From IMG/VR virus record IMGVR_UViG_2548876700_000022, positions 1 to 2,771 of that record: a stretch of 2,771 bases of DNA; one strand, written 5' to 3'. Under the pieces are notes generated by a model that saw only the letters and a list, made by a program, of their open reading frames with translations, did no database searches and had not been told where the DNA came from. The translations under genes were made by a program, and so were the position numbers. Source of the stretch: a virus. Lineage: Duplodnaviria > Heunggongvirae > Uroviricota > Caudoviricetes. Positions 1 to 2,033 of the stretch are shown one piece after another. Numbering within the stretch: the stretch's first letter is position 1; each line of letters starts with the position of its first letter.

Positions 1-267
1 ATGCGCAGAAAAGAGTCAAACGTTAGCAGTTTGCTGGAACTCACCAATTTTGAGGTAAGCTATTCTCTGGTTACCAATGAAGTTTACTTGTCTGCATCCT
101 TCACTGATAACATGGCCTGTATACCAAACTGGCCCTTACAAGAATTTCCGGATCAACTAATATGCATTTCTCGAGCAAAAGCTGTTGCCCTAATCGAAGA
201 GCTCCAGAAGACCATCAACTATATGGATGCAGGAATAGATCGAAGTTCAGGTAGCCTTCTCCAGTAG
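1..267 (+). CDS. hypothetical protein; possibly the 3' portion of a longer ORF entering from upstream of the window
   Basis: Open frame from window position 1 to TAG at 265-267 (88 codons). Same strand as, and 58 bp upstream of, the 326-973 gene, so it may be co-transcribed. Moderately AT-rich. No recognisable motif. The ATG at position 1 may be coincidental, since the frame may continue upstream. Confidence 0.35.
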   Translation: MRRKESNVSSLLELTNFEVSYSLVTNEVYLSASFTDNMACIPNWPLQEFPDQLICISRAKAVALIEELQKTINYMDAGIDRSSGSLLQ

Positions 268-325
268 CTGACGAGTTTTATAATAATTTGATATATATAT
301 CGTTCAATATTAGCGAGTACTTATA

Positions 326-973
326 ATGAGTGAATTTAGTAATCTTTTAAATAGCATACCTGGATGGTTATCCTCCTCCCTCACAGCTCTAGTTGGTACT
401 CTTATTGGCGGATGGTTTACCCTAAAAGGAGTGACCCAACAAGCTAAGCTGTCTAAAGTAGAGACAGAAAGAGAATCCCTTGAATTACAACTTTCAGTAT
501 TAAAAGGAGTTAAGGGAGAAGTTTTCACCCTAATCAATTTATATAATAAAAGGATGAAAACACACATTGATAATATAAAACCGGGACAAATGTTGATTCT
601 CACATTCCCTGTAGGGGATGATAATTTCACATTCTATGAGCAAAATGCGAATGTCATTGCAAAACTAAATGATTCTGCTAGAGACTCAATAATTAACATA
701 TACACATATTCACGCTCATTAATACAATCATTTAAAGGAAACAACAAACTCATTGAGGATTATGAAAAAATCCTTATTGGCATGGCAGACAATAACAAAG
801 ATAAAACCATGTATAAGAGATTACATGATGCAAAAATAAATGTAATGGTAGATTATGCTCAAGGGATAAAAAATATTGATGCAGAGCTAAGAGATGCAGT
901 CAATAAGGGATTCGACATTATCGACCAAGAAGTAAAGTCACTACAAATGAAATTAAACAAATTAGCTTCATAG
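326..973 (+). CDS. hypothetical membrane-anchored protein (single N-terminal TM helix plus helical/coiled-coil region); AT-rich cargo gene and candidate phage-exclusion/defence effector
   Basis: 648-nt ORF with ATG at 326 and TAG at 971-973. Residues about 11-33 (IPGWLSSSLTALVGTLIGGWFTL) form a hydrophobic helix. The rest is hydrophilic and rich in K/E/D/N with heptad-like spacing. The gene is very AT-rich and uses rare ATA/AAA/AAT codons, contrasting with the adjacent invertase. Weak SD-like GAGT about 8 nt upstream. Function is unknown from sequence alone. Confidence 0.7.
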   Translation: MSEFSNLLNSIPGWLSSSLTALVGTLIGGWFTLKGVTQQAKLSKVETERESLELQLSVLKGVKGEVFTLINLYNKRMKTHIDNIKPGQMLILTFPVGDDNFTFYEQNANVIAKLNDSARDSIINIYTYSRSLIQSFKGNNKLIEDYEKILIGMADNNKDKTMYKRLHDAKINVMVDYAQGIKNIDAELRDAVNKGFDIIDQEVKSLQMKLNKLAS

Positions 974-1022
974 AATGCTCCACTCCCTGTTCAATATTTT
1001 TACAAGCTTATCAGCCAACCGC

Positions 1023-1047
1023 AGCACGTTCTTGCATACGACGTGCT
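1023..1047. terminator. putative bidirectional intrinsic terminator hairpin between convergent genes
   Basis: AGCACGT (1023-1029) and ACGTGCT (1041-1047) are exact reverse complements, forming a 7-bp stem with an 11-nt loop. It is followed on the + strand by a T-containing tract (GGTTTCATTTAT). It sits in the 80-bp gap between the stop of the 326-973 gene and the stop of the invertase gene. Confidence 0.35.
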
Positions 1048-1053
1048 ACGGTT

Positions 1054-1608
1054 TCATTTATCTCCGACCGGAAACTTCTTATACAGTGTCGATATACCAA
1101 CATCATAGATGATCGCCACCTTCTGGCGAGGAACGCCTGATGCAATTAATCGTCCGGCCTGCTCCCATTGTTCTGGTGTAAGTTTGGGGCGACGTCCACC
1201 AATTCGTCCCTGTGCGCGAGCTGCTTCCAGTCCAGCTTTTGTTCGTTCAACAATCAGTTCACGCTCCATTTCAGCCAGGGCACCCATCACATGAAAGAAA
1301 AAGCGCCCCATTGGGGTACTGGTATCAATTGAATCCGTCAGACTACGAAAGTTGATGCCTCGTTCGCGCAACTCCTCCACCAGCACGACAAGATGCCGCA
1401 TACTGCGCCCCAGTCGGTCCAGTTTCCAGACCACCAGCGTGTCACCTGCCGATAATGTCCTGAGCAGCTTTTTCAGTCCTGGTCTGTCGGACTTTGTACC
1501 GCTTATCTTGTCTTCAAAAATCAGCTCACATCCTGCACAGTTCAGCGCATTACGTTGTAGATCGGTATTCTGGTCATTTGTTGATACACGTACATAGCCA
1601 ATAAGCAT
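1054..1608 (-). CDS. pin: serine recombinase, Gin/Pin/Cin/Hin-family DNA invertase
   Basis: Translation MLIGYVRVSTNDQNTDLQRNAL...DTLVVWKLDRLGRS...MGRFFFHVMGALAEMERELIVERT...GRIGGRRPKLT...IYDVGISTLYKKF has the hallmark small serine recombinase catalytic domain (Ser9 in YVRVST, codon at 1582-1584) and a C-terminal HTH. At 184 aa it matches the family size. I place the start at the ATG at 1606-1608 (MLIGY), preceded by a GGGGA SD-like sequence, rather than the ORF-track ATG at 1642-1644. The 12-codon extension MASFLLLPGEFN has no SD and is absent from family members as I recall them. The pin symbol is from memory of e14 Pin and is not verified. Confidence 0.93.
   Translation of the reverse strand: MLIGYVRVSTNDQNTDLQRNALNCAGCELIFEDKISGTKSDRPGLKKLLRTLSAGDTLVVWKLDRLGRSMRHLVVLVEELRERGINFRSLTDSIDTSTPMGRFFFHVMGALAEMERELIVERTKAGLEAARAQGRIGGRRPKLTPEQWEQAGRLIASGVPRQKVAIIYDVGISTLYKKFPVGDK
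1515..1590. promoter_or_regulatory. putative Fis-dependent recombinational enhancer embedded in the 5' coding region of the invertase gene
   Basis: In the Hin, Gin and Cin systems the Fis-bound enhancer lies within the first roughly 100 bp of the invertase coding sequence. The corresponding region here encodes VSTNDQNTDLQRNALNCAGCEL. Exact Fis sites are not determinable by eye, so the bounds are approximate. Confidence 0.35.
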
Positions 1609-1634
1609 GTTAAATTCCCCTGGTAAAAGCAGGA

Positions 1635-2033
1635 ATGATGCCATTTGCTTGTTATTTCTTCATTTTCATAAACGTTGGTTTGGGAGAAGCGGCGAAAAGG
1701 GATGTGGGCACAGGAGATAATCAGATACCGGATATGGGAGCATTCGCTTCTGGTTCGGGATGGTTCAGGCTACCAGGTGGATATATTGTTCAGTTTGGCA
1801 CTTTTGCAGGAAACACGACCCGCTTTATCAGTGGACACTTCCCTATACCATTCCCTAATCAGCCGATGGTTTCAGTCAGTGTTATGTCTGATGCCGTTCA
1901 GTCAGACCCGTCGATTCCTGCCCCGCAGGTTTTGTCTGTAAATTTTGAACATATCAGTAATTCAGCGTGGCGTGTGGCAACCAGTGATATCTCACAGCAA
2001 TACAGATTCAGTTATATTTCGATAGGACGGTAG
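1635..2033 (+). CDS. side tail fibre protein, variable C-terminal receptor-binding segment (Stf/S-variable part); gene segment without its own start
   Basis: Open frame ending at TAG 2031-2033, 2 bp before the tfa start codon, which is the typical coupled Stf-Tfa arrangement. The functional coding part most likely begins at the crossover site (about 1663-1677) and is fused to a constant N-terminal part only after inversion. The ATG at 1635 from the ORF track falls in the invertase promoter region and is probably not a real start. The sequence is Gly/Ser/Thr-rich (GAFASGSGWFRLPGGYIVQFGTFAGNTTRF), consistent with fibre-tip domains. Confidence 0.6.
   Translation: MMPFACYFFIFINVGLGEAAKRDVGTGDNQIPDMGAFASGSGWFRLPGGYIVQFGTFAGNTTRFISGHFPIPFPNQPMVSVSVMSDAVQSDPSIPAPQVLSVNFEHISNSAWRVATSDISQQYRFSYISIGR
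1663..1688. other. site-specific recombination crossover site (gix/pix/cix-like), left boundary of the invertible tail-fibre segment
   Basis: TTTTCATAAACG-TT-GGTTTGGGAGAA is a 12-2-12 imperfect inverted repeat, with 8 of 12 positions palindromic around a central TT. It contains the AAAC..GGTTT core typical of Gin-family crossover sites. It lies about 55 bp from the invertase start codon and inside the tail-fibre reading frame, where it encodes FINVGLGE, as is typical for Mu G, P1 C and e14 P segments. Confidence 0.65.

What the first reader, a model, noticed from the sequence alone, without database searches (positions are those of the whole stretch)
268..1053. Sharp compositional boundary between the cargo locus and the prophage invertase
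The DNA left of about 1000 is conspicuously AT-rich, with an (AT)5 run at 291-300 and a TATAAT at 279-284, while the invertase and tail-fibre genes to the right are near 50% GC. The switch coincides with the convergent gene junction and hairpin at 1023-1047, suggesting an insertion boundary of foreign DNA next to pin. The AT-rich intergenic region at 268-325 probably holds the promoter of the 326-973 gene, with TATAAT at 279-284 as a candidate -10 and no convincing -35.
Basis: seen in the sequence. Interest (0 to 1): 0.5.

Follow-up and report, generated by a model that had tools for sequence, protein, structure and literature searches.

The report
AT-rich cargo gene beside prophage invertase
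The sharp drop in GC content left of position ~1011 is real and marks the edge of a 734-base, single-gene cassette of unknown function, sitting in a swappable accessory slot next to the pin invertase at the end of an E. coli prophage; related prophages carry known anti-phage defence genes at this position.

Summary
GC is 33% in 283-1016 and 48.6% in 1017-2771. The best single change point falls after 1011 (LLR 23.6; the highest of 300 shuffles was 10).

Comparative genomics puts homology breakpoints at the same place. On the right they fall at 1011/1012 or 1016/1017, at the foot of a conserved hairpin (1017-1053) that belongs to the pin module.

ORF1 (1-267, 42% GC) is part of the conserved prophage arm. 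This arm lies 210 bp from the phage/host junction inside yfhL. The mobile unit is therefore 283-1016, carrying one 215-aa gene (326-973).

- **Slot contents elsewhere:** McrA, PD-T4-3, Olokun, or an unrelated 281-aa gene. All are AT-rich.
- **The 215-aa protein:** it matches no known family. It is predicted with high confidence as an N-terminally anchored four-helix bundle and is under strong purifying selection (dN/dS about 0.06).
- **Its homologues:** they sit in accessory or defence slots of other mobile elements.

The gene is most likely an uncharacterised defence or exclusion gene. The promoter proposal is unproven: the TATAAT straddles the left junction and has no usable -35. The (AT)n run is length-polymorphic. 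This is an ordinary kind of feature, with a modestly interesting cargo.

The parts
1..267 (+). ORF1, 88 aa. A conserved gene of the prophage's terminal arm, not part of the swappable cassette. Function unknown.
   Evidence: Matches phrog_17793 (unknown function) at E = 2e-43. There is no Pfam, NCBIfam or PADLOC hit. It is present in 125 of 5426 complete E. coli genomes, 80 of which also carry the cassette. GC is 42.7%. The phage/host junction inside yfhL lies 210 bp to its left.
268..282 (.). Last 15 bases of the conserved arm. The left recombination junction lies between 282 and 283.
   Evidence: In alignment with O111:H11 strain 8D and FDAARGOS_144, identity runs through ...GAGTTTTATA and then diverges completely. 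The megablast partial matches listed end at 282, except one that ends at 65.
279..284 (+). TATAAT hexamer, a candidate -10 element. It is a hybrid across the left junction (TATA|AT).
   Evidence: Read directly from the sequence. The alternative allele has TATACT. No -35 with at least 4 of 6 matches lies at 16-18 nt. The hexamer count in the window is not significant.
283..1016 (+). AT-rich single-gene cassette of 734 bp and 33.0% GC. This is the unit that differs between otherwise homologous prophage ends.
   Evidence: The left breakpoint is 282/283. The right breakpoints are 1011/1012 and 1016/1017. The change point is at 1011. The cassette occurs in 80 of 5426 complete E. coli genomes, always as a single chromosomal copy.
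291..300 (.). (AT)5 tract, length-polymorphic between strains.
   Evidence: Among the 60 of 80 genomes listed, inferred from match lengths, n = 4 in 1, n = 5 in 35, n = 6 in 21 and n >= 7 in 3. One search confirms n = 5, 6 and 7 by alignment. The tract lies in the spacer of weak promoter-like sites on both strands.
326..973 (+). ORF2, 215 aa. It has an N-terminal hydrophobic helix (about residues 13-33) followed by a helical bundle. It belongs to an uncharacterised family and is a candidate anti-phage defence or exclusion protein.
   Evidence: - No hit in Pfam, PADLOC, PHROGs, NCBIfam or PDB sequences.
- 216 hits at 90% clustering and 452 clusters at 50% identity.
- AlphaFold2 gives pLDDT 96.2 and an all-helical model.
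- The ORF is intact in 9 of 9 alleles read, with dN/dS about 0.06.
- Its GC is 33-35% in Enterobacter, Providencia and Dickeya too.
1017..1053 (.). Conserved hairpin immediately 3' of pin, with 13-nt arms and an 11-nt loop. It is a module-boundary element and a probable transcript end or insulator between the convergent genes.
   Evidence: - Inverted repeat I4; folding z-scores of -5.6 (- strand) and -3.8 (+ strand).
- Shared with prophages that carry other cargo.
- 89% of cells are paired in 7 variants, against 24-43% for slid controls. Covariation is not above shuffles.
- The same hairpin forms the 3' end of the Rfam CssrB sRNA model, but the hit is below threshold.
- The tail is T-rich only on the + strand (GGTTTCATTTATCT).
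1054..1608 (-). pin (pinE-type serine DNA invertase), 184 aa. This is the conserved right flank of the slot.
   Evidence: Pfam Resolvase at 1.6e-51 and HTH_7 at 4.4e-13. RefSeq annotates it as pinE. GC is 49.9%.
1675..1690 (+). Pin crossover site (TTGGTTTGGGAGAAGC), the edge of the invertible tail-fibre segment. Context only.
   Evidence: 15 of 16 bases match the e14 P-segment inverted repeat quoted in PMC12529663. Homology with related prophages ends just after it.

Best explanation
The compositional step at about 1011-1016 is the right-hand edge of a 734-bp AT-rich accessory cassette (283-1016). The cassette occupies a variable slot at the extreme end of a temperate prophage of about 42.6 kb integrated in E. 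coli yfhL. The slot lies between a conserved terminal gene (ORF1) and the 3' end of the pin invertase gene.

**Shown**
- The slot is bounded on the right by a conserved hairpin that travels with pin.
- Different prophages that share pin carry different, always AT-rich, cargo there. Three of these cargos are established anti-phage systems: McrA, PD-T4-3 and Olokun.

**Inferred**
- Cargo is exchanged by illegitimate or short-homology recombination, not by a site-specific mechanism. The breakpoints differ from case to case (1011/1012, 1016/1017, about 1052 in e14, and about 1346 inside pin in the O111-type allele). No flanking repeats, transposase or integrase accompany the cassette.
- The low GC is a property the gene keeps in every host. 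This is typical of mobile defence or moron genes.

**The cargo gene**
ORF2 encodes a 215-aa protein with an N-terminal hydrophobic anchor helix that runs into a four-helix bundle. It is a stand-alone gene with no conserved partner and is under strong purifying selection.

My best guess for its function is a prophage-expressed, membrane-associated anti-phage factor, acting by superinfection exclusion or abortive infection and protecting the lysogen. This is an inference from genomic context only.

**Expression (not shown)**
The gene could be transcribed from the AT-rich 268-325 region or by read-through from ORF1. The conserved hairpin probably stops this transcription from running antisense into pin.
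For: **Boundary**
- GC values and the change point at 1011.
- Homology breakpoints at 1011/1012, 1016/1017 and 282/283.

**Position inside a prophage**
- The host/phage junction lies in yfhL, 210 bp left of the window.
- The integrase and an intact yfhL lie about 42.6 kb away in O103:H2 strain 12009.

**Slot contents elsewhere**
- McrA in K-12 e14 and ECONIH5.
- PD-T4-3 in SZQ1 (E = 2e-140).
- OloA/OloB in Ceylon31 (E = 4e-111 and 3e-207).
- A 281-aa unknown gene in O111 8D and FDAARGOS_144, and ISKpn26 in OkiPb01696.
- These protein cargos are 36-44% GC, against 49-50% for pin.

**Breakpoint inside pin for the O111-type allele:**

**The gene is functional**
- Intact in 9 of 9 alleles, with dN/dS 0.06-0.09 at dS up to 0.18.
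- Homologues of 62-75% identity and the same length occur across Enterobacterales.

**Contexts of homologues**
- A P4-like satellite, directly after the integrase and next to an Mrr-type nuclease (Serratia).
- Prophage ends abutting icd, the position of mcrA in e14 (Proteus and Citrobacter).
- After a cI-like repressor and an HSDR_N gene in a lambdoid prophage (Providencia).
- Next to HigBA (Enterobacter) and near CcdAB in an integrative element (Dickeya).
- Next to the integrase of a phage-like element (Klebsiella).

**Published background**
- The int-psu slot of P4-like satellites is a defence hotspot (PMC9122126).
- 6 of 8 randomly chosen unknown loci from P4 hotspots protected against phages (PMC13586616).
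- DNA invertases are common in phage variability hotspots (bioRxiv 10.1101/2024.10.15.618418).
Against: - There is no experimental or homology evidence for any function of ORF2. It matches nothing in PADLOC 2.0.0, Pfam, NCBIfam, PHROGs or PDB.
- The fold matches are generic helical bundles.
- The hydrophobic segment is only moderately hydrophobic (Kyte-Doolittle mean 1.35 over 19 residues), so membrane anchoring is not certain.
- The known defence cargos were found in e14-like prophages at other chromosomal sites. These share pin and the hairpin, but they are not the yfhL prophage. The only alternative allele seen in the yfhL prophage is another unknown gene.
- I found no related prophage with an empty slot, so 'insertion' cannot be told from 'replacement', and the direction of change is unknown.
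- No promoter is demonstrated.
- The hairpin lacks a clean U-tract, and its covariation support is not above shuffles.
Confidence: 0.8

Rival explanations
1. The AT-rich gene is a lysogenic-conversion or fitness moron with a role unrelated to phage defence, for example envelope modification, signalling, or a host-interaction factor. The boundary is still a mosaic joint, but 'defence' is the wrong label.
For: - There is no similarity to any defence family.
- The best fold matches are four-helix-bundle sensor domains of chemoreceptors and TorS, plus DUF3829, which hints at ligand binding.
- Prophage terminal slots also carry non-defence morons. In the Citrobacter locus the neighbours are umuDC, dinI and an acetyltransferase.
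Against: The homologues repeatedly sit next to restriction nucleases and toxin-antitoxin pairs. They also occupy the P4 integrase-proximal hotspot and the e14 mcrA position. Three of the four protein cargos seen at the pin slot are validated defence systems.
Confidence: 0.3
2. The low GC comes from the protein's amino-acid composition (Lys, Asn, Ile and Leu rich) or from ordinary gene-to-gene variation within a phage, not from a separate origin. On this view there is no insertion boundary.
For: - ORF2 is rich in L, K, I and N.
- All the prophage genes in the window have lower codon adaptation than the neighbouring host genes: 0.48-0.59 against 0.64-0.75.
Against: - GC3 is 29%, against 42-45% in the flanking phage genes, so the bias is also synonymous.
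- Homology with related prophages stops at the compositional change point.
- The gene keeps 33-35% GC in hosts whose flanking DNA is 40-58% GC.
Confidence: 0.03
3. The ORF1-ORF2 segment is a decaying remnant of an older element left at yfhL. Incoming phages recombine with it through pin, so ORF2 is hitch-hiking and not selected cargo.
Against: - ORF2 is intact in all 9 alleles read, with dN/dS about 0.06 at dS up to 0.18.
- In O103:H2 12009 the arm is part of a complete-looking 42.6-kb prophage with its integrase, flanked on the far side by an intact yfhL.
Confidence: 0.12
4. The (AT)n tract is a slipped-strand switch that tunes or phase-varies ORF2 expression by changing the spacing of a promoter.
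For: - The tract length varies from 4 to at least 7 units among strains.
- In (AT)7 alleles a + strand site TTGATA-16-AATATT appears. It has a 12-nt spacer in this window.
- A - strand site TTGAAC-16-TATTAT is in register at n = 5 and n = 6.
Against: - Five to seven dinucleotide units is short for high-frequency slippage.
- The promoter-like sites match only 9 of 12 positions and occur at the rate expected by chance in this AT-rich DNA.
- Variation between strains does not show switching within a strain.
Confidence: 0.1

Closest known systems
The pinE-mcrA end of cryptic prophage e14 (E. coli K-12)
   Same: The architecture is the same. The invertible tail-fibre segment is followed by the pin invertase, then an AT-rich stand-alone accessory gene, then the attachment site. 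In e14 mcrA is 38% GC against 49% for pinE. McrA is a type IV restriction enzyme that acts against phages.
   Different: The integration site differs (icd in e14, yfhL here), and so does the cargo. e14 does not share the 1017-1053 hairpin sequence; homology with e14 begins only at about 1052, at the pin stop codon. Here a further conserved gene (ORF1) lies between the cargo and the attachment site.
Phage 'morons' in the sense of Juhala and Hendrix, as cited in bioRxiv 10.1101/2024.10.15.618418
   Same: It is an extra gene between conserved phage genes. Its base composition differs from the flanks, it lies in a region with its own AT-rich upstream DNA, and a hairpin follows it.
   Different: An autonomous promoter and terminator are not demonstrated. 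The hairpin belongs to the neighbouring pin module and not to the cassette. No empty-slot relative was found.
[quoted passage not shown] 2022, PMC9122126; PMC13586616)
   Same: A fixed slot between conserved genes near the element's end holds rapidly swapped cargo, much of it anti-phage. A homologue of ORF2 lies directly after the integrase of a P4-like satellite, next to an Mrr nuclease.
   Different: The element here is neither P2 nor P4. The slot is defined by pin and a terminal ORF. ORF2 is not among the systems named in those papers as far as I could read them.
The gin-mom right end of phage Mu (from my own knowledge, not tested here)
   Same: The invertase gene is followed by an accessory DNA-modification or anti-restriction function at the extreme end of the genome.
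   Different: Mu transposes and has no attachment-site integration. mom is regulated by com and Dam. There is no sequence relationship.
Four-helix-bundle sensor domains (chemoreceptor and TorS ligand-binding domains, DUF3829)
   Different: Sequence identity is 5-12%, there is no Pfam 4HB_MCP hit, and there is no second transmembrane helix or output domain. The resemblance is generic for helical bundles.

Membership tests
Phage moron / accessory cassette | Base composition distinct from the flanking phage genes | tested here: met
   33.0% GC in 283-1016 against 48.6% in 1017-2771 (p = 6e-13) and 42.2% in 1-282 (p = 0.007). GC3 is 29% against 42-45%.
Phage moron / accessory cassette | Present in some related phages and absent or replaced in others, with discrete homology breakpoints | tested here: met
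   Breakpoints are at 282/283 and at 1011/1012 or 1016/1017. 80 genomes carry the cassette. The listed ORF1-only genomes carry a 281-aa gene instead, or an IS in one case. No empty slot was seen.
Phage moron / accessory cassette | Own promoter and own terminator | tested here: inconclusive
   The consensus scan finds no + strand promoter-like site in 268-325. TATAAT 279-284 has no adequate -35 and spans the junction. The downstream hairpin is shared with prophages that carry other cargo, so it belongs to the pin module.
Anti-phage defence hotspot cargo | Slot between conserved genes whose other occupants are known defence systems | tested here: met
   PADLOC identifies McrA (mREase_IV, 7e-203), PD-T4-3 (2e-140) and OloA/OloB (4e-111 and 3e-207) immediately 3' of pin in other E. 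coli prophages. These are e14-like prophages at other chromosomal sites.
Anti-phage defence hotspot cargo | Protein belongs to a recognised defence family | tested here: not met
   ORF2 has no PADLOC 2.0.0 hit. Across 77 family members only scattered hits with E above 1e-4 appear. Databases newer than 2023 could not be searched.
Anti-phage defence hotspot cargo | Confers resistance to phage infection | not testable with these tools
   This needs plaque assays with the cloned gene and with a deletion mutant.
Rfam RF02799 CssrB (Shigella sRNA) | Covariance-model score at or above the gathering threshold (76 bits) over the full 180-nt model | tested here: not met
   The score is 37.2 bits at 1020-1076 (-). 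Only the terminal hairpin and about 10 nt align, and 129 model positions are missing.
Serine DNA invertase (Pin/Gin/Hin/Cin), right flank | Resolvase catalytic domain plus C-terminal HTH_7, next to a crossover site and tail-fibre gene segments | tested here: met
   Resolvase 1.6e-51 and HTH_7 4.4e-13. The crossover site at 1675-1690 matches the e14 repeat at 15 of 16 positions. Gp53-like_C and Caudo_TAP genes follow.
Intrinsic (Rho-independent) terminator, for hairpin 1017-1053 | GC-rich stem, short loop, then a U-tract | tested here: inconclusive
   The stem is stable. The tail is an interrupted T-run on the + strand only (GGTTTCATTTATCT). The - strand tail is not U-rich.
Promoter phase variation by dinucleotide repeats (as in the Haemophilus hif (TA)n promoter; from my own knowledge) | Repeat tract inside the -35/-10 spacer of a functional promoter, with length changes switching expression | tested here: inconclusive
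   The tract is polymorphic, with n = 4 to at least 7. It lies in the spacer of sites that match only 9 of 12 positions and occur at chance frequency. Promoter activity and switching were not testable.

The most novel reading that the evidence does not exclude
ORF2 founds an unrecognised family of single-gene, membrane-anchored four-helix-bundle anti-phage or superinfection-exclusion proteins. The family has about 450 clusters at 50% identity. It moves as an AT-rich one-gene cassette between the accessory slots of unrelated mobile elements: pin-adjacent prophage ends, the P4 integrase-proximal hotspot, lambdoid immunity regions and integrative elements. Its expression might be tuned by a polymorphic (AT)n tract in the upstream region.
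Probability: 0.4. Interest if true: 0.55.

Novelty: new member of a known kind. Interest (0 to 1): 0.35.

Why it matters
The boundary itself illustrates a well-known rule: mobile, AT-rich accessory genes sit in fixed slots at prophage ends. By itself it adds little.

The result does three useful things:
- It defines the exact cassette (283-1016).
- It shows that the slot 3' of pin-type invertases acts as a defence hotspot in E. coli prophages, holding McrA, PD-T4-3 and Olokun.
- It nominates a compact 215-aa protein family, with no annotation anywhere, as a testable candidate for a new single-gene phage-resistance function.

The family is widespread in Enterobacterales, strongly conserved and confidently modelled, so a simple cloning and plaque-assay experiment could settle the question.

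Tried and rejected
- **Family searches for ORF2** in Pfam, PADLOC, PHROGs, NCBIfam and PDB sequences, for the single protein and for a 77-member alignment, found nothing meaningful.
- **Promoter scans** of the window, the upstream arm and two allelic variants gave no + strand site for this allele, and overall counts were at chance level.
- **Mobility signatures.** Among the short repeats found in 1-1200, only one 10-nt direct repeat pair brackets ORF2 (GTTCAATATT at 302-311 and 989-998). It is compatible with chance and is not conserved in homologous loci. No transposase or integrase accompanies the cassette.
- **Hairpin covariation.** Two pairs change on both sides, but this is not above the shuffle control.
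- **Phage collection.** No sequenced phage carries the cassette. The closest records, such as vB_EcoM-611R5, are prophage-derived, include host genes and carry the 281-aa allele.
- **Literature searches** by protein accession and locus tag found nothing. A search for CssrB found nothing relevant.
- **Rejected idea: ORF1 and ORF2 form a two-gene system.** ORF1 is kept with a different downstream gene. In the eight other genera examined, no gene is conserved next to the ORF2 homologue, judging by gene size and Pfam content.
Full report
**1. What the window is**

The 2771-base window comes from an E. coli prophage. The same DNA lies, at more than 99% identity over 1-1053, in strains such as O103:H2 12009, ETEC H10407, IAI1 and O55:H7 CB9615.

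In those genomes the host gene yfhH is followed by the first 48 bases of yfhL. Homology with K-12 then stops, and window position 1 lies 210 bp further on. In O103:H2 12009 a tyrosine integrase and an intact yfhL follow about 42.6 kb downstream. The window is therefore the integrase-distal end of a yfhL-integrated prophage.

The gene order in the window is:
- ORF1 (1-267, +, 88 aa)
- a 58-bp spacer
- ORF2 (326-973, +, 215 aa)
- an 80-bp spacer containing a hairpin
- pin (1054-1608, -)
- the pin crossover site (1675-1690)
- tail-fibre and tail-fibre-assembly gene segments

**2. The observation**

GC by segment is 42.2% in 1-282, 24.1% in 268-325, 33.3% in ORF2, 33.0% in 283-1016, 49.9% in pin and 48.6% in 1017-2771.

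A one-change-point likelihood scan puts the switch after base 1011, with LLR 23.6. In 300 shuffles the mean was 2.6 and the maximum 10.0. Fisher's test for cassette against right flank gives p = 6e-13.

The bias is also synonymous. GC3 is 29% in ORF2 and 42-45% in ORF1, pin and the tail genes. Neighbouring host genes have GC3 of 53-61%. Codon adaptation to those host genes is lowest for ORF2 (0.42). The other phage genes score 0.48-0.59 and the host genes 0.64-0.75.

A weaker step lies near 275 (22 of 500 permutations reach it).

Its arms are 1017-1029 and 1041-1053. It folds far better than shuffled sequence on both strands.

**3. Where the real junctions are**

*Right side.* Prophages that share pin but carry other cargo lose homology with the window at 1016/1017 (strain SZQ1) or 1011/1012 (strain Ceylon31). 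K-12 e14 and ECONIH5 share only pin itself, from about 1052. The hairpin therefore belongs to the pin module, and the cassette ends at its foot, exactly where the composition switches.

*Left side.* 125 of 5426 complete genomes contain ORF1, but only 80 contain ORF2. The listed partial matches stop at base 282, and one stops at 65, where ISKpn26 is inserted. In the two 282-stop genomes I fetched, the match is followed by 301 bp and an unrelated 281-aa gene. In that allele the right junction lies inside pin, at about window 1346, so the 3' half of pin is gone.

The exchangeable unit is thus 283-1016, 734 bp with one gene. ORF1 is part of the conserved arm.

The breakpoints differ from case to case. 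No flanking repeats or recombinase genes accompany the cassette. This points to illegitimate or short-homology recombination and not to a dedicated insertion mechanism. That step is inference.

I found no relative with an empty slot, so I cannot say whether this allele arose by insertion or by replacement.

**4. What occupies the slot elsewhere**

Immediately 3' of pin, other E. coli prophages carry:
- McrA, the type IV restriction enzyme of e14
- a GIY-YIG protein identified by PADLOC as PD-T4-3 (E = 2e-140)
- the two Olokun genes OloA and OloB (E = 4e-111 and 3e-207)
- the 281-aa unknown gene

These cargos are 36-44% GC, next to a pin of 49-50%. The position behaves as a defence hotspot.

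[quoted passage not shown] It also notes that DNA invertases are frequent in phage variability hotspots (bioRxiv 10.1101/2024.10.15.618418).

**5. The cargo gene**

ORF2 has no hit in Pfam, PADLOC 2.0.0, PHROGs, NCBIfam or PDB sequences. A scan of 77 diverse family members also finds nothing.

It is nevertheless a real, conserved gene:
- 216 clusters at 90% identity include proteins of 62-75% identity and the same length in Dickeya, Salmonella, Enterobacter, Yersinia, Providencia, Morganella, Serratia, Proteus, Klebsiella, Citrobacter and others.
- A full HMMER scan finds 452 clusters at 50% identity, mostly about 200 residues long.
- All nine E. coli alleles I read are intact. Between the diverged alleles dS reaches 0.18 while dN/dS is 0.06-0.09.

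AlphaFold2 with a 77-sequence alignment gives pLDDT 96.2. The model has a helix from 13 to 82 whose first 20 residues are hydrophobic (GWLSSSLTALVGTLIGGWFTL). A loop region follows, then helices 116-154 and 160-214. This is an N-terminally anchored helical bundle.

The hydrophobic segment is moderate in strength (Kyte-Doolittle 1.35). Lysines follow it (K34, K41, K44), which by the positive-inside rule would put the bundle in the cytoplasm. This is inference.

**6. Context of the homologues**

The gene always travels alone:
- **Serratia:** directly after the integrase of a P4-like satellite (Ogr/Delta, AlpA, Ash, D5-type primase), next to an Mrr-family nuclease gene. This is the position of the published P4 int-psu hotspot.
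- **Proteus and Citrobacter:** at the end of a prophage abutting icd or an icd fragment, the place mcrA holds in e14.
- **Providencia:** after a cI-like repressor and an HSDR_N gene in a lambdoid prophage.
- **Enterobacter:** in a small islet beside HigB/HigA.
- **Dickeya:** in an integrative element near CcdAB.
- **Klebsiella:** beside the integrase of a phage-like element.

Its GC is 33-35% in all of these, whatever the surrounding DNA (40-58%).

Taken together, the gene is a self-contained accessory module that frequents defence slots. My preferred reading is an uncharacterised anti-phage or superinfection-exclusion factor, at about 0.4 probability. A non-defence moron function remains a serious alternative.

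**7. Promoter, repeat and hairpin**

*Promoter.* The consensus scan finds no + strand sigma-70-like site in 268-325. The total number of sites in the window (9) is close to the shuffled expectation (6.0 +/- 2.8). The region upstream of ORF1 also gives nothing.

By eye its best -35 is TTCTCC, at 3 of 6 matches. The hexamer is split by the left junction, and the other allele reads TATACT. If it is a promoter, most of it belongs to the conserved arm and it would drive whatever cargo sits downstream. This cannot be decided without transcript mapping.

*Repeat.* The (AT)n tract is polymorphic. By match length, n = 4 in 1 genome, 5 in 35, 6 in 21 and at least 7 in 3, among 60 of the 80 genomes.

It lies between a TTGATA and an AATATT that come into a 16-nt register only in (AT)7 alleles. 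It also lies between a - strand TTGAAC and TATTAT that are in register at n = 5 and n = 6. These are weak, chance-level matches. I record them as a lead, not a finding.

*Hairpin.* It is conserved across prophages with different cargo. In 7 variants 89% of cells are paired, against 24-43% for slid controls. Its two compensatory pairs do not exceed the shuffle control.

Its T-rich tail is on the + strand, so it would terminate ORF2 transcripts before they run antisense into pin.

The same hairpin forms the 3' end of the Rfam CssrB model, a Shigella sRNA on the pin strand. The hit scores 37 bits against a threshold of 76 and covers only the hairpin. The window does not contain CssrB. The hit is at most a hint that this hairpin can mark a transcript end on the pin strand.

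**8. Verdict**

It is imprecise about the extent of the cargo, since ORF1 is not cargo. It is unproven about the promoter.

The phenomenon, an AT-rich accessory cassette in a prophage-end hotspot beside an invertase, is a known kind. This cassette is a new member, with an unannotated but conserved, confidently modelled and experimentally tractable cargo protein.

Noticed in passing
window 291-300: The (AT)n tract varies in length among the E. coli genomes that carry the cassette (n = 4, 5, 6 and at least 7). It sits in the spacer of weak promoter-like hexamer pairs on both strands, and their spacing changes with n.
   Followed up: partly
window 1020-1076 (-): A sub-threshold Rfam hit to CssrB (RF02799, Shigella sRNA), 37.2 bits against 76. 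Only the terminal hairpin of the model aligns, so the hairpin 3' of pin is the same one that closes that sRNA model.
   Followed up: partly
window 1675-1690: The Pin crossover site TTGGTTTGGGAGAAGC matches the e14 P-segment repeat at 15 of 16 positions. Homology with related prophages stops just after it. The tail-fibre C-terminal segment at 1635-2033 and the two opposed tail-fibre-assembly genes (2036-2476 + and 2448 onward -) are therefore part of an invertible host-range segment.
   Followed up: partly
window 302-311 and 989-998: An exact 10-nt direct repeat, GTTCAATATT, brackets ORF2. Each copy lies 18-19 nt inside a cassette end. It is compatible with chance in this AT-rich DNA and is not conserved in homologous loci.
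   Followed up: partly
window 1-267: ORF1 (88 aa, phrog_17793, unknown function) is conserved at the extreme prophage end in 125 genomes, whichever cargo follows. Its role is unknown and I did not study it further.
   Followed up: no
L004 6569-7414 and L005 6568-7413: The alternative allele at the same slot is a 281-aa protein (37% GC) with no hit in Pfam, PADLOC or NCBIfam. It is a second uncharacterised hotspot cargo, and its acquisition removed the 3' half of pin.
   Followed up: partly
L002 10054-11843, L027 1358-1516, L029 1357-1613: In several strains the ORF1-ORF2 arm is joined through a truncated pin to a different tail module (a GH55 protein and e14-like ymfQ/baseplate genes), to IS1, or to non-phage genes. 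pin therefore acts as a recombination joint between unrelated prophages or remnants at yfhL.
   Followed up: partly
L028 630-1295 (strain A34): This ORF2 allele has an 18-bp duplication at the 5' end (MSELLIMSEFSN...), giving a 221-aa product. It also diverges from the window just 3' of the hairpin.
   Followed up: no
window 1609-1644: The longest pin ORF starts at ATG 1644 (196 aa), but RefSeq annotates the start at 1608 (184 aa, MLIGYVRVS...). The 12 extra codons overlap the start of the 1635-2033 ORF on the other strand and are probably not translated.
   Followed up: no
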